A DNA stretch of 64,000 bases from assembly GCA_030324005.1 (NCBI GenBank), contig JARDVH010000163.1:63338880-63402879 (forward strand), written 5' to 3'. Positions 2,161 through 17,030 of this stretch are shown here, in pieces. Each line of letters begins with the position of its first letter. The first letter of the stretch is position 1. This stretch comes from Negaprion brevirostris. Lineage: Eukaryota. The notes beneath the pieces are model-generated. The model was not told where the DNA came from and did no database searches. It saw nothing but the letters and a program-made list of their open reading frames with translations. Both the position numbers and the translations under genes were made by a program.

Positions 2161-5100
2161 CTGCTCCTGTGGGACAACACACCAATGGCCATACATGAGG
2201 GACAAATAGGAATATACCAGGTAGCTTCACCTCCTACAGAATGATTTAGATTGAGATAGGCATAGACATCACAGAGGCTGTAGTTTTTACTACATTTCTG
2301 CCTAACTCAAAGATACAGCAATGAAGTGGAATGAAAACGTACAAATAACTGCTGCAGAAAACTAAAAAGGCTTCATATTTTCCAATGGTTTATACTGTGA
2401 GTCATAAACTCCAACATTTGTCAGTTGGCAAATTTGCAATAAAGTTGAAGGTTGTTGACAGTTCCACTAGTTGTGAAGGATAATGCCAAACTTGGGATGA
2501 TGCCCTGGTCATATATATATGAAACTACCTATGCTGCTTGTTGTGAAAATACCACAAGATCATTTTTTTTCATTTTAAAAAATAAGCATTTGTTTCAGTT
2601 ATTTGTTGAAGATTGAATGATACACTTACTTTTCTTGGCAGCTATCCAGGGAGGTGCATGCATTGAAAATTACTTCTTTGAAGGAGAGAAGGTCCAACTG
2701 CAAAACTTGGGCTGGAGGCATGGACAACAAACACTGTTTGTAAGCTTACAAGGAATTCTGGTGCCACCACATTTACATATTTCGGATGCAAAGGATCTCA
2801 GAACCAAATAATCAGATTCAGTTGTGAACCACCTCAGGTTGTCAATGCACAGGAACAAAAAGAGTTTCTTGCTCTGAAAATTAAACCACAAACACTAGAT
2901 GCTATACTCTGAGTGTAATTTGAGAAGGCCTAAAGAAAATGAATACTGTTGACATATTTTTCTGTCAATTTATGAGTATAACACAATGCAACCTTTGAGG
3001 CAGAATTTCCAGTTGAGTTCTGGCATTGGAATGCTAACTCAGGCAGTCTCTTTCAACTGACCCAAATAGTTCATTGGCCCTTATTACAGTCACACTGGGA
3101 CTTTTGGTACATTTTATCCACAGAAAGAATTTGGCAGAGTACTTAGTTTCCAATTTTGGTTTTTTAATGCAAAGTGGGTTCACATAATTTTTAAAAATAT
3201 TTTCAACAAGGTACTGAAGACATAAAGGAAAAATGTCACTTGGCTTAGATATAAATAATGATGTTTGCTTTAGCTTGTCTCCATAATTGAGTTAACAGCT
3301 CTGACTGATTGGGTTGGAACGTCCTTGGTTTCATGTGCTTGAGGGTCTTCCCTTACGCATGTGAACACAATAGTAAAACCAGAGGCACACATAAAACGTC
3401 ACTCAAGTTTTAAACTTAAGGCTACAAGGACAAGCTTTAACCCATACTCAGATAGAGAATGCAGGGAAGGTAATTAGGATTTCTTTTAAATCACGTTATG
3501 GAGAAGTGTTGTATCTTCATTATTTTTCTATAACTATGTGCTTAGTGACCTAATCAAATCTAATCACTTTGCTCTGTATGTTCACTTACTGTGAAATAAA
3601 GCACCTTCATGATTCCTCTCTGGCCTTGTTTTACCAAATGGTTACTGAATTTGTCTTCAAAGTTTGGAAAGGCATGTGGAGACAGGTAAAATATTTTAGT
3701 ATTTGGTTCAAATCACAACAGGGTATTATCATTATACCGTCATGCTGATATCAGGCAATATAGGCACATCTTAAACACAAAATGGGAATGACTCGCACCT
3801 ATGAGCCCAAAAGAATATTGCGGTTAAAACTCTAAAAATTTAGCCATCACTTTTAGTTCTTACCCATCAAACCAACTAAGATCTTACTCTGAAGTAAAAA
3901 GGCTCTTGTTTCTATCTTGCTTTAGAGGGTAGTGTTCAGAAGTGATCAGCAAAATGAGAGGTTAAGTGAATGAAGGGGAGCTGGGTTGAGCTAGTTGGTG
4001 ACATTATATACAGGGTATGTGAAATTAGAATGATCTGCAGAAGATTCAGTTTATCTTTATTACAAAGTAGATTGTTCTTTATGTTAGCTGTGTCAACAAA
4101 GCACAGGGATCTATTGGTCAAGTCATCAAAGATTAGCATGCCAAGTGAGCACAATGATAAATGTGTGTACTGGGCAAATTTGTGCAAGGAAGTCAGTGAA
4201 ATCTAGTGAAATCTTGGCCACAGGAGATAGGACCAACTGACATTACAGATAATTAGTGAGCTGGCACTTTCTCGATCTCTTTCTCTACACTTTCTGAAAT
4301 TCCTCTTGTATTGCCAGTAAATACCTGCATTGTTCTTACCACTTGCATTCGTCAAGTTCTGGTAGCACCTGATTCGTGATGTTTCCACAGGCCCTTAATT
4401 ACATTTGTATTAAAAAAATCTGTAACTGCCTTTGTATTGTTAATGCCCATAGCAGCCCTTGGAGTGTCTCTGTGCCTTTGCTCACACTTGCAGTGAAAAG
4501 TATATTAGCACCACTCATACTTCTCATTTTGTTACTGGTCTCCAAATCGCATTCTCTTCCCCTCTCAAGCTTCAGTGGTGTATCTCTGCTGCACCCATTT
4601 CGATCTAGTTCTGTGCCTGTGACCGTACTGCCCATAGCTGGATTAGAGATACCTTAACTTGTGTATATGAAATGTTTTGAATTATTTGTATCTTTGCTGC
4701 CAGTATGTATCTCTGAAATATCCCAACTTGTATGGTACCTTGGCTAAGAACTTGAGTGCAGAATCTAGGCTTATACCTCAATATAGTAATGAAAGGTTCT
4801 GTGATAAGTACAAGTCCTAGATGACACTAGACAAAGGCCCTGTTTGTATGTACTGTCTGTATGGTGCCTATCAGTACTTGCTTTTAACACATCTGTTCCA
4901 TTGGAGTCAGCGTCAAATTTCACTACCACGAGCCCTTAGTTTTGAATCAAGCAAAGACCTCACAAGACAATCAACAGGTGTGTGATGTGATATGCGGCAA
5001 AATAAAAACAGGCCAGTTTTCATGTCTTTTTGTTAAATTTTGCACAAATTATATTGTGTAGTCATACAAAATGACACTTGAGACAAACTGTACACGGAGT

Positions 5101-5339
5101 CAGAGCCGCTCTGTTCTGACACATATCACTGTGTGTGGCAATGCTCCGGAGCCCACAACACTAAAACTGCTGGAGTTTAACAACAAACACTGCTGCCAAC
5201 TGTACAAAAATGAAAAAGGAACGATGGCTGCTTCTGAGGCCAGATCCGCTCACTGGCCACACGCACAAGTTCCAGTTGAAAGACTGTACATGTCACTGGG
5301 TATCAGGGGTAAACACTATTCTCTCAGCTGCTGCTCCAC

Positions 5340-5668
5340 TCATCTNNNNNNNNNNNNNNNNNNNNNNNNNNNNNNNNNNNNNNNNNNNNNNNNNNNNNNN
5401 NNNNNNNNNNNNNNNNNNNNNNNNNNNNNNNNNNNNNNNNNNNNNCATCTTCCCCTGCTGCCTCTGGAGGAACCTCGGCGCGGCACCGGACCTGAACCCT
5501 TGCCACTCCTTCCCCAGTTGGGCCCGCCTCTGGCTCCACCCCGTGGAGGGGGTCCTGCGGGGCCACTGAATCCATCATCTCGGTGGAAACCGTCGTGTCG
5601 ATCTCCCTCATGTGAATTGGAACGGCCGGACTTGGGCATGCGTGGTGATGAGGCTGGCCCACTTCGGC
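5340..5668 (-). CDS. WDR33: WDR33 terminal exon, coding part (stop codon split by an N gap)
   Basis: ttttacag|GC CGA AGT = RSGPASSPRMPKSGRSNSHEGDRHDGFHRDD...RRGSSRGSRGR then TG|gap; the other gap flank reads AGA TGA. Confidence 0.9.
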
Positions 5669-6150
5669 CTGTAAAAGAATCCATTAAGAAACAGGTCATT
5701 TCAAATCCTACTCCTCTCGCTGATATCCTATGCAGAATATTTTATAATAAATCCCTCTGCAGCAGTGACAAAACAGTCGACACAAACATTCTACTTTGCT
5801 GCTAGTTCACCACTGAGAGGGCATAGCATAAGGAACCTGCTTGTCTTAGAGAATAACAAAACACCTCAATTTGAGAGAAAGACAAATGCGTGATTAATCC
5901 CTTCAAGACGCCAAGCTGGGGTACTTTGCTGAAACACCAACGAACTTCAAACATCATTAATGAAGTTCTGATTGCCTCGGCACTGATTTACACAAGAGAA
6001 GTGGCAAGCACTTGGTCGTGCTGCTCCCTATGTCTTTGTGCAGCAACAGGGTGGTTCCGATAGCAACCTCTCTGCCACGGGATTGATCCATTGCAAGCAT
6101 GGCACAGACTGGCGAGAGCTGCCCTTCCACTAGATTCCCTTCCAAAGTTA

Positions 6151-6170
6151 ACCCTGTGCCGGCACAGGGT
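6151..6170. repeat. Perfect 20-bp palindrome
   Basis: accctgtgcc|ggcacagggt. Confidence 0.95.
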
Positions 6171-6204
6171 GCTGCCACTGACAAGCAGCTTTGATTACTC
6201 AGAC

Positions 6205-6250
6205 GTCCTGTCACTGTCTGGCTGCTGGTGCAGCCAGACAGTGACAGGAC
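6205..6250. repeat. Perfect 21-bp inverted repeat with 4-nt loop
   Basis: gtcctgtcactgtctggctgc-tggt-gcagccagacagtgacaggac. Confidence 0.95.
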
Positions 6251-6276
6251 ACACACACACACAGGCAGAAACTTAC

Positions 6277-6492
6277 TTGGACCTCTGTCCTCAGCCAGGG
6301 AGCCAAGTGCACCCAAGTTTCTTTGATCAGGTGTTCCTGGCCCTTCATTCTATAGTCGCTTGCGGGGTAGAAGTGACACAGTGTCCATGCTATGGAGTGA
6401 TGTAGGTCTCCCTCTGCTGCTTGGAGATTGGCCATGAAGAGATGAGTGGTTCTGGCAAGAATCATCTGCATAGCGACTGCAGCCAGTCTCGC
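6277..6492 (-). other. WDR33: WDR33 exon 21 homolog with an in-frame TAG at 6350-6352 (poison/edited/degenerate exon); acceptor uncertain (6492 or 6465)
   Basis: Hand translation ...HGQSPSSRGRPTSLHSMDTVSLLPRKRL*NEGPGTPDQRNLGALGSLAEDRGP; donor A|gtaagt intact; phase 1-1. Confidence 0.78.
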
Positions 6493-6935
6493 CTTCCAAC
6501 CAGACAAGTATATGATAAATTGGATGAACTGAAACTTCACAGTAAAGGCCTCTTGTAAATCAGCTAACCACTATTTATATTCTGACTATGGGCCACTCAA
6601 ACTTTACAGAGCCAAATAAAAAGAGAATTTAAAATGTTTGGCATAAAACAAACATAAATTATATTTTAGCTCAGGCAGCTGAAAATGCCACAGCCAGATT
6701 ACAGATTGAGTTTCGTATAAATAACCCCAAAACTAGCTATAGATTCTTCCAGGGAGGAGCAGATATCAACATATACAACCATTTGGACTTGTATATTGAT
6801 ATCATTGCACACATGGTGGCCTGAGCGCGCACACTGGCTCGACACACAAATCCCCCCAGCAACCCTACCACTGGGACTCTGCTTCACTATTTAGGCAATA
6901 TTTGATTATGGATGTTGATGATCCTCAGAACAAAC

Positions 6936-7097
6936 CTTGTTCTCTACTGGCATCATGGATTTCACCTCGATCTCCTCGGCCTCCCCAGCCATCCCGGTGA
7001 CCTCCTGGGGACAATGGCCTTTTCTCTGACTTACGGCCGCCTTCAAAGCGAGGGAATTCATCATGGCCAGGGAGAGGAAGGAGACCCCCTCGCCCGC
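6936..7097 (-). CDS. WDR33: WDR33 exon 20 equivalent, 162 bp (in-phase alternative donor would end it at 6966)
   Basis: ttttgcag|GC GGG CGA = GRGGLLPLPGHDEFPRFEGGRKSEKRPLSPGGHRDGWGGRGDRGEIHDASREQ; donor G|gtttgt. Confidence 0.85.
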
Positions 7098-7708
7098 CTG
7101 CAAAACCAAAAATGAAACAACTCAACAACTTGGAATCAATCCTGTCACTTTGGGTTGTCACCATGCAGTATCATAGGTGCCTTCCGTGATTAAAGACACT
7201 TACAGGGAGATAGAGAGAAAAATGTGGGGGGCTGAACATCAAAATCAGAGTTAGAAGCTTTCAGAAATAAGATTGACAATTTTCTGTAAGGGAAGATTAT
7301 TGAGGGTTATGGAACTAAGATGGATAGAACAGCTGAAATGCACAATCCAAAAAAATGGCACATTAGGCTTGAGGGGACGAATGGTCAGCCCATGCTTTTA
7401 CGTTCTAGTTGCAAGCTGGGGTACCATTGGAAAGCCTGTAAGCACATTCAGCTGTCAACAGGTCAATGTTTTTGAGGGGGTGTGCTGTAAATTGGATGGC
7501 AATTAAATCTGTATTTGTGTACTTTGCATCACCTTCCACCAATAGTGTCTCTCACTGTTGAGATATAATTGGGATTGACTGTGCCAGTAACCACTTTATG
7601 TGTTTGAAGTGCTTTTTAATTTGGCCACACACATATTATTTATATATGGCTCAATGCCTACCCAATAAACTACCAATATAAATATAGTACGCTGACAGTC
7701 AGCTATAC

Positions 7709-7878
7709 CTCGCATTGTTCCACGGCCCCGTCCTCTCCCTCCTGGATCACGGCCCCTTGCATTCTCCTCTGATTGGTCAAACTCCTCATCGCCCATGAAC
7801 TCATCCATGTTCACGAAAGCATCTCTCCCTCGTGGACCACGACCATCATGCCGTGATGCCCCTCGAACGGGCCGGAAC
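7709..7878 (-). CDS. WDR33: WDR33 exon 19 equivalent, 170 bp
   Basis: tgtccag|G TTC CGG = FRPVRGASRHDGRGPRGRDAFVNMDEFMGDEEFDQSEENARGRDPGGRGRGRGTMR; donor G|gtatag. Confidence 0.92.
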
Positions 7879-9479
7879 CTGGACAGAGAATATTTGGAGG
7901 TTCACACAGCTATTGCAGTCTCATGGGCCTAATTGACCATAACATTTCTACATCTCATGAAGAATAGTGACCATATAGTAGTCTGAGACATTTCAGAAAT
8001 GCAGGTCCGACTGCCATAAACTAGAATGTTCGTATTACACATAGCCTGATCCTTCACCGGAAATAAGCTCCAAGGATCCTTTCCAGGCCCCAGTAAGCTG
8101 CATACAACACTCTCAGCAATATTCTGAACACCAGTACTGATGTTCTGCTCACATAAACTCAATTTCAGTATGAACATGTCAAATAACAAAAATCATGTTA
8201 TCCCAGCACTACAATCCATTGGTTCACTACAGCACATGAGCTCCATCATCTGTCGTCCCTCAGTTGCAGCTCACTGGGACATCAACTATTCAGCCAAACA
8301 AAATGCTTTACTTCACCCTTATAAACTAATGACTTAGATTAATAGATGCCCTTTATCTGATCATAGAGAATGCAATGGTTTATCATCAAAGTGATCCTCT
8401 TGCAAAGGGAGCTTAAATATCCACACCCATGATTTTCTGAGATAAAATTTGAGTTAGTGTAGTTTACGGTTGCCCTAGAAGACTTAATCAAAACACCACA
8501 ACAATCTGAAGACAACCTGAAACAAAAGACTTTATAAAAAATAAATCAACACTGAATTATAAACTTGAATAGATGACATTCTGCACACAGAACAAGGATT
8601 CTAGCTCCAAAGAAGTCATACTGGACTCAAAATGTTAACTCCGTTTTTCTCTCTCTACACGTGCTGCCAGATTTGCTGCGTTTCTCCAGCACTTTGTTTT
8701 CATTGCAGATTTCCAACATCTGCAGTATTTCGCTTTTTAGGCATTTGTTTAGATGTTGAAAATAAGGTGGTCATCTTAAGGATAGGTAATTCAGGGGAGC
8801 TCAAAAATAACCTTAAAACATGAGTCCATTATTGCAGTAGGACAAGAGATCTTTAATCCTGTCAAATCCTTTGAGATTAGTCAATCAAATTGACTGTCCA
8901 GCTAATGAGGAAGGTGCTATGAAGATATACATACAGAAGGAAGAAACAAGTTAACCAATTTTACACCTGTTGACAGGCCAAGGGTTCAATCCATTGGTAT
9001 ACTGTCTTTGTTGCAGCTCCTCCATTTGGGTGCGAACAGTTGCATTAAGTGAAGGCTAAAGGAAAACATTTTATTCAACTTGTGTGAAGAAATTTTAACA
9101 CTGACCCCAAACCCAAAGCACTCCTCAAAAAATGGGCTTAAAAGACCAGTGTTTGCTTACCTTTGCCCACGAAACAGCCCTCACACAATCCTTGTAATTA
9201 ATTATACAGTCCTTATACCTGATGAGCATAACTGGCAACCGAGATCGAATAACACTACATGGAAAGTGGCCCAACAACAGATTACAGCGTGTATAGCATA
9301 CTCATCAAAGTCGCTGCTGTTTTCTCAACACCCATTTCAAGCAGCAGCTGCCCAGTACAAATTCCCAACATTGATAGCAGCAAAGGTGCGATTATCTATG
9401 CATAACTATAGTTGTCAGTATTCTCACAGGACGTCACCTATACATAGGCACTAGTACAGCCTTGCAGATGGCAACAGCA

Positions 9480-10300
9480 AAAGCTTATAAAACAGACAGA
9501 AGAACCATGAAAAGAAATTTGCAAGGGTATCAAATACAAATTGCTTTTTTACAATATTGGGAAGAAAGGTGATCAGGAACCAAATGGGTCCTGTGAAAAC
9601 TGAGAATGGTGATGTTGCCAATGAAAAGAAGGAAATGGCAGATATGTTGAATAATTACTTTGTGTCAGTATTTACAATAGAGAAAGAGGTCAATATGACA
9701 TCTTGAGGAAAACTATGATTGAATAAGGGACACAGACTCACTAAAACTAAGGTTAATAAAATTACAGACAAAAGAAGCTAATACAGAGTGACAAATTCCC
9801 AGAAACAGATGGTTCCAATCCAAGATTTTAAAGGAAGTTGGTGAGAAAATTGGCAATACGAAAGTGTTCTAAAGTTCTTTCAGAATGTAAAAATGAATGT
9901 TGTTCTGCTATTTAAGAAAGGTGAGAAGAGGAATCCAGAATAACTGACCAGTTAGTTTAATATGTGTTTCCTGTTTCTCAACACTTGGAAATTTTTCAGC
10001 AGATCAGAGAGAGCCAGCATGGATTTGTAAAGAGTAGGCGATGCTTGATAAACTCCAGTGATTTTTTTTCAAGGTAGCTAAAATAGTGGATAAGGGAATA
10101 CCAATGAATGGTGTACATATATACATGGACTTCCAGAATGAATTTGATAAAGTCCTTCATAAGAGGCAGTTGACTGATGGTGATGTCCATGGAATTAGTG
10201 GTAAATTATTCACCTGGTTAGGAAATAGATTGAGTGGCAGGAGACAGAGTGTGGGGATAAATGGGCAGAATATGACTAGTGGTATTCCACAAGGTTCATC
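9480..10300 (+). mobile_element. Decayed CR1-like LINE ORF2 fragment
   Basis: Remnant motifs LNNYFVSVFT, QHGFVKSRRCLINS, YMDFQNEFDKVLHKR, MTSGIPQGS. Confidence 0.8.
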
Positions 10301-12864
10301 AGTTCCAATACCTCTATGTGGCTCAGTATCAACATTTTGTTTGGCACAAATCCTGTGAGGTGCTTTGGTATGTTTTATTCCATTAGAGGTGCTATGTAAA
10401 TACAAGCTACCTTGTCTGGATACATTAGAAGGTAGAACTATGAAAGGAGGAGGAGGAGTTACAGACTCCTACTAATTATCAAAAACACTTCATGTGCAGA
10501 GTATCTGGTATACTTACCTACACAACAACAATGAACGCACTTTACAAGTAGTATGTGGGTTGTGAAGCACTTTGCATATTCAGAGAACATGAGAAGACAG
10601 ATTATTTCTTCACTGGTCTCCTGCGGAGTTGCACTCTTCCTAGGATCATGGCTGGTTAATCATCAGAAACAGCCTCCAGAAACTGATATTTCCCATTCCT
10701 GGGCTTTTACTGTGTTGAGTGTTGTTTGGCGTACCTCTGCTTTAGCCCTTTGAACACTGACTCCCTCTTGCAGCTCAATGTCAGATAACAAATAATGAAG
10801 CCAGATTGAAGTTTGGATATTTCTTCAAGATGGTGAATAAAACAGATGGAAACCATTACTGGTGACTCAAAGAGAGGTTCTTAGCCTGACCTGTGCATCA
10901 ATGTCTGTACTTCATTTATACATACTGACCTGGTTAACCAAATCAGAGTTAACTGTCAAGGCCAAAAAACAGCTTTGGAGTGGCTGATGTATTTTACCAA
11001 GGTTATTATGAGTTGAACACTAGAAGCTAGAGTAGGCAAAAGGGAATTCCATCCTTAAATCACCTTGTCCCATGTCAAGAAACAAGTGCAGACAATCTCC
11101 AAGTTGTTGAGCAAGATGGCCAACTAATTGCATCATTATTGTTCCACGAACAGACTAAATCCATAAAATGAAGCTAAATTTGGGACAGATTGTACCAAGT
11201 TTTGCTGTCTTCATGAGTGTGTCAGACATGGGCACTGGTGCTGGACTGAATCAAGTTAAGGATTTTCAGTAGGATTGTTTGAATATTTACTTGAGTTATA
11301 GATCATACTGTCATGGGAGATGGCATATTTAACAAATGATGAAAAATGCCCCATCCGGGCATTCCAAAAGTTATGGCATACTTCTACATAACATTTACCA
11401 TATGTACTGCCCTTCGTTTGAGGAAACTTGGCATGGTACAAAAACACGTCAAAATCTAGTTAATGGATAAATTTGACATTAGAACTCCAAGATCTCATTC
11501 TGATAGGTCTTGGCGCTTTGACGGAGAATTCATCCAACAATGAAACAACCCAACTTTCAAAATCCTCAAGTTCACAAAATCCAAACAAAGACAATAAATA
11601 CAATATGAACAAGTTCCCGAGTTTTGAGAACTGGTTTGTCAGAGTGCAGGAGCTGTATTTGGGAACAGGTCACAGTTTTGACATTGCTGACAAGGGAAAG
11701 TATCTTTGATGCAGGTATTTTGATGATAAAACTAAGTCATGAGTGAATGTATTGGTTGAAATAATTGCTGTAATCAAAATCAAATAGGCTGCTCCTTTTG
11801 ATCAATAAAGGGTCAATTGGACAACAGCTCAAACAAAGGATGCACACATCAAAGGCCACAGGCCAGCACAAACACTTTTCTGAGTTTGTAGATTATTAAG
11901 ATTGTCAAAAATTTATCCTTTCAGACTGACCTTCAAAACAAGGCCCGGTGGTTATTAGTCTTGGGATGAGAAAACAGGACGATTCTCTGTAGGTGATTCC
12001 TAAAATGTCAATTCAGTCAGCTCCCTGAGGAATGTCTACTATTTCTTTCTGAGAAGTATTTTGATCTCAAGGGTGGGAAAGATTCTGTCTGGCTGACTTG
12101 TTTGCTCAAGTTTTGAGAGTTGGCTCTACACGAATGTATTTGAATTGATTCAAGGTGTTGCTTATACTGCTGCTTCTGTCCATAAACCTGCTTGCAGGTT
12201 TATTCTGTTACTAAAAGCGTCTGGTATGGCCAATACTAGCCTTTGGAAACAATGCAAGGTAGAGTGGAATACCTAATACGATCCAATAGCAATAAAAGAG
12301 TTCATCGTTTGCCTCGGTTAAGCTATCCCAGGAAGAAGGGACTTTCAGTGAACCTTCTATGGAAAACACAAATACAAAATGTCTGGATAGAGTTTGAATT
12401 GAAACTGCACATTTCCAAATGGTCTTGAATAAATGGATTCAGCCATATACTGACCCGATCTACTGCTGGTCTGTATCCTGCTGGCAGCAGTGCCTGATGG
12501 ATTGTCGCCCATTCCCAACTTCCAAAGAGAGTGGTTCCAGGGATATTACAATTGGCTGATATTTAAAACCTGATTTTCAAATCTATACAAAAACACTGGG
12601 AATCTTCAAACTGATCACATGGATCAAAACCTGGTCCCCATCTGCCTTGAGATGGGTGTAGTTGATATCAATATCTCTGCTCAAATTCATTCCCAGGTTG
12701 TTTGAAAACCTGTTCAAATCCACCAAAGGAATTTTACAACTCATTCCTTTACAGTAAAACCAAGCTGGAGTCATGAATGCAAATTATCTCAAGTAAAGGG
12801 TAAACCAGACCACCTCTTGGCAGATTCTATCTTTGTGCCTTCACGCAGCTTTTAAGAAATTAAT

Positions 12865-16555: not shown

Positions 16556-17030
16556 CTGTCATCCCTCCGCCCACGAAAGCGCATATCATCTGGCTCCCTC
16601 ATGAATCGTTCATCTAATGGTTTCCTTCCATCCCAACCTTGAGGTGGACCCCGGCTTGGGCCTCTGTGCTCAGGATCCCCAAAGTCCCTGTACTCCTGAT
16701 CAGGAGGAAAATCCCGCTGAGGACCAGGCCCCCGTCTCCAGCCCTCATCAAGGGGTAGCGGACCCATACGGTTCTCAAACTCCCGCGACCTGTGGCTGTA
16801 TCGCTCGTCCTTCCGGTAATCATCATGATACTGATCTGGTCCTTCAAAACGATCGTGGTAGTCTTGGGGTGGGCCTCGTCTCTCTGCAGACCCTCTGTTT
16901 TCCCGAGGATCATTCCAGTCATGGGAACCCCTGTAAGGAGGTCCCCGTTCAGGATCACGCTCTGTGCTCTGATCACGCCTCATTTCTTGTGGATGACCCA
17001 TGTGATGGTTTGGAGGACCATGAGATTCAC
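16556..17030 (-). CDS. WDR33: WDR33 exon 18 equivalent, 475 bp, R/G/D/P-rich
   Basis: ttgacag|GT GAA TCT = ESHGPPNHHMGHPQEMRR...DMRFRGRRDD; donor AG|gtgaga; phase 1-2. Confidence 0.93.

What the first reader, a model, noticed from the sequence alone, without database searches (positions are those of the whole stretch)
6277..6492. Exon-21 homolog carries TAG at the Trp position: poison exon, amber-to-Trp RNA editing or exon loss in progress
Seen: QSPSSRGRPTSLHSMDTVSLLPRKRL*NEGPGTPDQRNLGALGSLAEDRGP with no frameshift and a perfect gtaagt donor. Recalled human exon 21: HSPASRERSSSLQGMDMASLPPRKRPWHDGPGTSEHREMEAPGGPSEDRGG, so TAG (6350-6352) replaces TGG. The exon is phase 1-1, so skipping preserves frame. 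If included, the stop lies 73 nt upstream of the final junction, beyond the 50-55-nt NMD rule. Both candidate acceptors (6492, 6465) have poor pyrimidine tracts. UAG is the preferred ADAR triplet and UIG reads as Trp. Alternatives: decaying skipped exon, regulated poison exon, edited codon, polymorphism or consensus error.
Basis: partly seen in the sequence, partly recalled or inferred. Interest (0 to 1): 0.8.

Follow-up and report, generated by a model that had tools for sequence, protein, structure and literature searches.

The report
Decaying skipped exon in shark WDR33
A once-optional piece of the gene WDR33 has fallen out of use in this shark lineage and is decaying by mutation, so its stop codon is most likely an ordinary scar of exon loss rather than a sign of RNA editing or a regulatory switch.

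Summary
In detail: WDR33 (minus strand) has a 216-nt, phase 1-1 exon (6492-6277) with TAG at 6352-6350 where orthologues have Trp. It is best read as a dead cassette exon. (1) Gene models of catshark, sevengill shark, chimaera, cats and warthog come with and without it; 7 of 7 ray models lack it. (2) The window changes 16 of 52 otherwise invariant residues here against 2 of 242 in neighbouring exons (p=1e-11); only 2 of 16 are reversible by A-to-I, CpG content is intron-like, and neutral simulation makes one stop the commonest outcome. (3) Spliced contigs from the same organism label and a relative join 6936 to 5668. (4) TGG is not a difference shared by two related DNA runs, so an assembly error is unlikely (inferred). 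(5) A second WDR33 cassette exon (about 12720-12599) is equally decayed, with a non-editable TGA and no acceptor AG. A poison-exon role is not excluded (splice sites intact, no frameshift, only two assembled transcriptomes). Editing is very unlikely.

The parts
6277..6492 (-). Decayed 216-nt cassette exon of WDR33 (penultimate coding exon, phase 1-1)
   Evidence: skipped in both spliced contigs
6350..6352 (-). TAG at the position of the conserved Trp of the P.KRPW motif
6493..6520 (-). Weak acceptor (AAG). Chimaera models that read into this intron imply CAG and a similar upstream text; DNA run X17 carries 12 extra, sense-strand pyrimidine-rich bases after 6513
   Evidence: (table 4); direction of the 12-nt change is inferred, not shown
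6256..6276 (-). Donor gtaagt and the following bases; translate to 6 of 7 residues of a chimaera model that reads into the same intron, so the flank is old
6205..6250 (.). Perfect 21-bp inverted repeat with 4-nt loop in the downstream intron; not perfect in the two related DNA runs
   Evidence: gaps at 6238, 6242, 6246 in X8 and X17
6936..7097 (-). Upstream constitutive exon (52 of 53 residues identical to catshark)
5448..5668 (-). Last coding exon (68 of 72 identical to catshark); its stop falls at the N run 5346-5445
12599..12720 (-). Second, equally decayed WDR33 cassette exon (40 codons; Arg to TGA at 12670; no AG at the expected acceptor, no GT at the expected donor); internal control
   Evidence: skipped by the X16 contig (table 7)

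Best explanation
Lineage-specific exon loss caught part-way. The exon was an old, frame-preserving cassette exon in the low-complexity C-terminal half of WDR33, included in some transcripts and skipped in others (shown by annotated isoform pairs). In the ancestors of this shark it became skipped in essentially all transcripts (skip junction shown in two assembled transcriptomes; 'all' is inferred), probably through further weakening of an already weak acceptor (CAG to AAG, loss of a 12-nt pyrimidine run; inferred). The skipped mRNA stays in frame and makes a complete WDR33 lacking 72 residues, like the catshark X2 isoform. Freed from protein-level selection, the exon accumulated mostly transitions and lost CpGs (shown); TGG to TAG is one of these hits. 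Any rare inclusion would be removed by NMD (established rule, not tested), which would tidy up rather than regulate.
For: 16 of 52 residues invariant in catshark, sevengill and chimaera are changed in this exon against 2 of 242 in four neighbouring, equally low-complexity exons, Fisher p=1.2e-11; within the exon 16 window-only against 5 catshark-only changes, p=0.027; on the constitutive exons the window's branch is not long (0.021 against about 0.03 to catsharks). 8 of the 16 are single C>T changes. CpG observed/expected 0.27, like the three introns (0.17-0.37), unlike the four coding exons (0.58-0.94) (only 4 CpG, small numbers). Neutral simulation to 16-22 changed residues gives at least one stop in 63-84% of runs, one stop being the commonest outcome in all 6 settings. 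Both spliced contigs laid, X16 (same organism label, no differences) and X14 (relative), join 6936 to 5668 with GT..AG ends. Isoforms without the exon: catshark 1 of 2 models, sevengill 2 of 4, chimaera P0032 and P0036, six cat and warthog proteins; 7 of 7 models of 4 myliobatiform rays. The second cassette exon shows the same decay (9 of 28 invariant residues, TGA, 0 CpG, splice dinucleotides gone). Two of the three exon differences that both DNA relatives share against the window are amino-acid changing, at a density like the introns (3 in 216 nt; too few for a test).
Against: The exon keeps AG and gtaagt and has no indel, whereas the second dead exon lost its splice sites; rough chance of no indel under neutrality 0.05-0.45. 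That the only stop is TAG at the exon's only Trp has 5-7% chance in the simulation (7-10% given a stop). Only two transcriptomes, as assembled contigs of unknown tissue, which drop rare forms. One of the 16 changes (Pro to Leu before the Trp) is also in four bird proteins, so is tolerated, and catshark also shows some excess change in this exon (5 of 41 against 7 of 247, p=0.017), so part of the signal is general relaxation. No orthologous shark DNA was available for a dN/dS test.
Confidence: 0.87

Rival explanations
1. Co-opted poison exon: the former coding cassette is still included under some condition or tissue, and the stop 73 nt before the last junction sends the mRNA to NMD, tuning WDR33 (CPSF) levels. 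Protein-level decay would be expected in that case too.
For: Splice dinucleotides and a consensus donor are kept; no indel; stop position satisfies the 50-55-nt rule (rule from established knowledge); donor flank resembles the chimaera's; an NMD substrate would be missing from contigs anyway; WDR33 is an RNA-processing factor, the class in which poison exons are common (PMC11357089, passages).
Against: No nucleotide-level constraint seen: run X8 differs at 20 of 474 bases over 6114-6587 against 11 of 550 and 29 of about 1360 in the flanking pieces; indels lie right at both flanks (6238-6264, 6513); CpG decay. Keeping 4-8 splice bases at about 10% divergence per site is unremarkable (my estimate 0.4-0.65). 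The sister cassette decayed to the same depth without splice sites. No inclusion junction seen.
Confidence: 0.08
2. ADAR edits UAG to UIG (Trp) in included transcripts, restoring a full-length isoform (NARF exon 8 or hepatitis delta amber/W type).
For: The one stop is an editable TAG at Trp (5-7% under neutral decay); the A is paired with probability 0.5-0.77 in a short local stem; a perfect 21-bp hairpin lies about 100 nt downstream; precedent in NARF (PMC1852406, passages).
Against: Editing only makes sense if the product is under selection, yet 15 other invariant residues are changed, including both neighbours of the Trp, and only 2 of 16 are single G>A changes. No transcript contig covers the exon; both join across it. 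None of the 25 longest of 116 inverted repeats in 4500-9500 has an arm over the codon; the hairpin is interrupted in both DNA relatives. The sister exon's TGA from an Arg codon cannot be repaired to Arg by A-to-I.
Confidence: 0.015
3. Assembly error or private polymorphism: the true or common allele is TGG in a working, fast-evolving exon.
Against: Both X8 and X17 cover 6350-6352. One search prints 40 difference rows, among them 22 shared by both runs and single-run rows up to 5872, with 130 hidden as less supported; 6350-6352 is not among the shared rows, so at least one other organism lacks the TGG restoration (inference from the table's ranking). One error would not explain the other 15 changes or the skip junctions.
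Confidence: 0.03

Closest known systems
Lineage-specific exon loss through weakened splice-site recognition (review PMC12992808, passages read, citing Wang et al. 2015, which is not held; TNNI3 exon 3 lost or inactivated in moles and shrews and skipped in bats)
   Same: An exon kept in relatives is skipped, frame is preserved, the remnant persists and decays; apparently repeated in separate lineages (this shark and myliobatiform rays).
   Different: The exon was already an alternative cassette rather than constitutive; no phenotype is known; two cassettes of the same gene are affected.
Poison exons of RNA-binding proteins, e.g. Smndc1, SR proteins (PMC11357089, passages)
   Same: Cassette exon with a premature stop upstream of the last junction in an RNA-processing gene.
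   Different: Those are highly conserved with demonstrated inclusion and NMD; this one is intron-like in divergence, derives from a coding exon, and inclusion was not seen.
NARF Alu exon, site E1: UAG edited to UGG (PMC1852406, passages); hepatitis delta amber/W site (recalled)
   Same: In-frame UAG at a position where Trp would be read.
   Different: NARF has a long Alu-Alu duplex, observed inclusion and over 97% editing; here no long duplex over the codon, no inclusion, and the rest of the peptide is decayed.
Annotated WDR33 isoforms without this exon (catshark X2, sevengill X2/X3, chimaera X4, cat and warthog X3/X4)
   Same: The product predicted for this shark is the same skip isoform.
   Different: Those species keep an intact exon and an inclusion isoform; this lineage appears to have only the skip form.

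Membership tests
Lost (pseudogenised) cassette exon | Homologous exon intact and used in outgroups | tested here: met
   Present in catshark, sevengill, chimaera, coelacanth, bichir, sturgeon, birds, mammals
Lost (pseudogenised) cassette exon | Release from protein-level constraint | tested here: met
   16 of 52 against 2 of 242, p=1.2e-11; intron-like CpG
Lost (pseudogenised) cassette exon | Mature mRNA skips it and stays in frame | tested here: met
   Joint 6936-5668 in 2 of 2 spliced contigs; both ends phase 1
Lost (pseudogenised) cassette exon | No meaningful inclusion in any tissue | not testable with these tools
   Only contigs of two runs; no raw RNA reads offered
Poison exon | Premature stop more than 50-55 nt upstream of a junction | tested here: met
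   73 nt
Poison exon | Inclusion observed and raised by NMD inhibition | tested here: inconclusive
   No inclusion contig in 2 runs; contigs drop rare forms; no NMD-inhibited data
Poison exon | Nucleotide conservation of exon and flanks among relatives | tested here: not met
   Exon region as divergent as, or more than, neighbouring introns; indels at both flanks; low-depth contigs, part of the table hidden
ADAR stop-to-Trp recoding site | UAG in frame at a Trp position | tested here: met
ADAR stop-to-Trp recoding site | Extended duplex with an editing-complementary sequence | tested here: not met
   Only a short local stem, p 0.5-0.77; no listed inverted-repeat arm over the codon among the 25 longest of 116 within 4500-9500; more distant partners not searched
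ADAR stop-to-Trp recoding site | A-to-G mismatch in cDNA | tested here: inconclusive
   No transcript contig covers 6351; both join across it
ADAR stop-to-Trp recoding site | Rest of the encoded peptide under purifying selection | tested here: not met

The most novel reading that the evidence does not exclude
An ancient coding cassette of the CPSF subunit WDR33 has been converted, in one shark clade, into a tissue- or state-restricted poison exon: its peptide is free to decay while AG, gtaagt and the old intronic flanks are kept to allow regulated inclusion and NMD, with the editable UAG as a possible off-switch.
Probability: 0.08. Interest if true: 0.55.

Novelty: new member of a known kind. 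Interest (0 to 1): 0.2.

Why it matters
Modest. It removes a striking-looking editing candidate and documents a natural deletion experiment: a motif conserved from chimaera to mammals in the WDR33 C-terminal half, whose function a 2024 review calls unknown (PMC11331416, passages), is dispensable in this shark lineage and, by annotation, separately in stingrays and devil rays. Two cassette exons of the same tail have died here. It also matters for annotation: homology-based models would wrongly call this WDR33 a pseudogene or truncate it.

Tried and rejected
PDB sequence search with the exon peptide: 1 hit at E 4.5, uninformative. Second or processed WDR33 copy carrying an intact exon: one locus only in three searches of the own genome. 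Reassigned genetic code: rejected, 18 Trp codons and no stop in 13 other exon segments. Alternative acceptors: 6465 keeps the TAG in frame; 6487 and 6451 shift frame and stop inside the exon; 6476 gives a frame open through the last exon, but that frame is open in about 57% of random recodings of such peptides, the acceptor has 7 of 21 pyrimidines and no contig uses it. One search used wrong frames for two control exons; its totals were discarded and redone. Three of 14 constitutive acceptors were mis-indexed by one base in the pyrimidine count and are left out of it. Run search: no RNA holder listed on record; 4 of 24 listed runs were laid; X1, X2 and the other 18 were not. Protein searches returned no further shark orders; the representatives search gave 9 hits, 6 fetched, all intact bony-vertebrate-type motifs and no other decayed shark exon; the rest were not examined. 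Rfam: 8 sub-threshold miRNA matches, all on the 21-bp hairpin, none near its gathering score. Earlier scan findings: nothing in two look-ups. Literature: 8 searches; listings only, apart from passages of PMC11331416, PMC12992808, PMC1852406 and PMC11357089; none of the 10 listed papers of the shark search mentions WDR33 and no listed title concerns this exon; supplements were not read, so an entry in a splicing table cannot be excluded. Wang et al. 2015 was not held.

Full report
What is there. The window carries most of WDR33 on the minus strand; 16 exon matches to catshark WDR33 were mapped. The genome is 2.69 Gb and holds one copy of the gene region. On constitutive exons the window groups with the two catsharks at 100/100 support, and a clade of window plus rays is rejected (p-AU 9e-7). 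The exon 6492-6277 is 216 nt, phase 1-1, bounded by AG and gtaagt, with TAG at 6352-6350, 73 nt before the donor.

The exon is an old cassette. Annotated isoform pairs differing by exactly these 72 residues exist in catshark (1269/1197) and sevengill shark (1263/1191 and 1303/1231); chimaera has models with and without it; six cat and warthog proteins skip it; all 7 models from 4 stingrays and devil rays lack it, including their longest. These are annotations, not my junction counts. Where included, the Trp is invariant (60 of 60 motif matches; 4 further bird proteins). Chimaera models that read into the flanking introns match the window's intron text on both sides (HILV upstream; 6 of 7 residues downstream), so the weak acceptor context and the strong donor are inherited; the chimaera text implies CAG where the window has AAG (inference).

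The stop is not alone. At residues identical in catshark, sevengill and chimaera, the window differs at 16 of 52 in this exon and 2 of 242 in four neighbouring exons (p=1.2e-11, which corrects the frames). Identity to catshark is 46 of 71 here against 153/158, 48/56, 52/53 and 68/72. Both neighbours of the Trp are changed. Eight changes are single C>T, three A>G, two G>A, and three others; only the two G>A could be undone by A-to-I. CpG observed/expected is 0.27, within the intron range. Simulated neutral decay to this depth gives at least one stop in 63-84% of runs. Against over-reading: catshark also shows a milder excess in this exon (5 of 41 against 7 of 247), one of the changes is tolerated in birds, TAG at the Trp has only 5-7% chance in the simulation, and the lack of any indel has a rough chance of 0.05-0.45.

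Transcripts. Of 24 listed runs four were laid. X16, same organism label, gives one spliced contig with no differing letter that joins 7709 to 7097 and 6936 to 5668; X14, a relative, gives the same joints. Neither covers the exon; the DNA runs do not hold the joined form. Contigs show presence, not absence, tissues are unknown, and an NMD substrate would be under-represented.

Is TAG real? Not read directly in raw reads. DNA runs X8 and X17, other organisms, both cover the codon. The difference table shows 40 rows, including 22 shared by both runs and single-run rows up to 5872, and hides 130 less supported rows; the only shared rows in the exon are 6421, 6474 and 6491. An error or private allele in the window would have put 6351 among them. 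So at least one other organism does not restore TGG, and by the same logic most of the 16 changes are shared with at least one relative. This rests on my reading of the table's ranking and on contigs of depth 2 and 4. The exon region is no better conserved than the introns (X8: 20 differences in 474 bases against 11 in 550 and 29 in about 1360), with indels at both flanks; X17 has 12 extra pyrimidine-rich bases in the acceptor tract.

Internal control. Sevengill and chimaera have a second cassette of 40 residues further upstream. The window keeps its remnant at about 12720-12599 (E 2e-13) with 9 of 28 invariant residues changed, an Arg-to-TGA stop, no CpG and neither splice dinucleotide at the expected places; the X16 contig runs from the exon ending near 16556 straight into 7878 (table 7). 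The same depth of decay with a stop that editing cannot repair shows that exon death with an in-frame stop and no frameshift is what happens to cassettes of this gene in this lineage. Catshark and ray models also lack this exon, so its loss may be older.

Editing. The A of the UAG pairs with probability 0.5-0.77 in a short local stem; no listed inverted repeat covers it (25 longest of 116). The strong folding of the region (z -4) comes, by the structure shown, largely from a perfect 21-bp intronic hairpin at 6205-6250 that is interrupted in both relatives, which suits a recent template-switch mutation (PMC5453318, listing and start of abstract only). The known precedent, NARF exon 8, has observed inclusion, a long duplex and over 97% editing (PMC1852406, passages); none is seen here.

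Mechanism, with status. Ancestral optional exon (shown by annotation); shift to skipping (skip shown, exclusivity inferred); cause in the acceptor (inferred); in-frame WDR33 without 72 residues (follows from the joint); neutral decay including TGG to TAG (shown statistically at protein level); NMD clean-up of rare inclusion (established rule, untested). The propeller half suffices for signal recognition and the function of the C-terminal half is described as unknown (PMC11331416, passages), so loss is plausible. Confidence 0.87; poison exon 0.08; error or polymorphism 0.03; editing 0.015.

Novelty. A new instance of lineage-specific exon loss (PMC12992808, passages). I found no paper on it in 8 searches read mostly as listings, without supplements. 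The apparent parallel loss in rays rests on protein annotations alone. Interest is low: 0.2.

Noticed in passing
window 12720-12599 (-): Second decayed WDR33 cassette exon (40 codons), intact in sevengill shark and chimaera models; TGA at 12670, no CpG, splice dinucleotides lost; skipped in the X16 contig.
   Followed up: yes
window 6205-6250: Perfect 21-bp hairpin with a 4-nt loop 27 nt after the donor, interrupted in two related DNA runs; likely a recent template switch; only sub-threshold miRNA-like Rfam matches.
   Followed up: partly
P0005, P0025-P0030 (rays): All 7 myliobatiform ray models lack both cassette exons; the tree makes loss of the 216-nt exon independent of this shark's, if the annotation reflects a true loss.
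   Followed up: partly
window 5346-5445: 100-N gap at the WDR33 stop codon with AGATG on both sides, probably two overlapping contig ends; the stop is likely AGA TGA.
   Followed up: no
window 6476 acceptor: A cryptic CAG would give a 200-nt exon whose shifted frame stays open through the last exon; expected by composition (about 57%) and not seen in contigs.
   Followed up: yes
P0044, P0045, P0047, P0052: Four bird proteins carry Leu instead of Pro just before the invariant Trp, the same change as in the window.
   Followed up: no
P0002, P0003: Catsharks already show mild excess change in the exon, including two substitutions in the core motif, suggesting relaxation began before the split.
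   Followed up: partly
window 22957-22892 (-): Polyglutamine run of about 19 Gln at the start of the collagen-like exon of WDR33.
   Followed up: no
window 61722-61135 and 14156-12868 (-): Broken reading frames that look like LINE (CR1/L2-type) reverse-transcriptase remnants in introns; label recalled, not tested.
   Followed up: no
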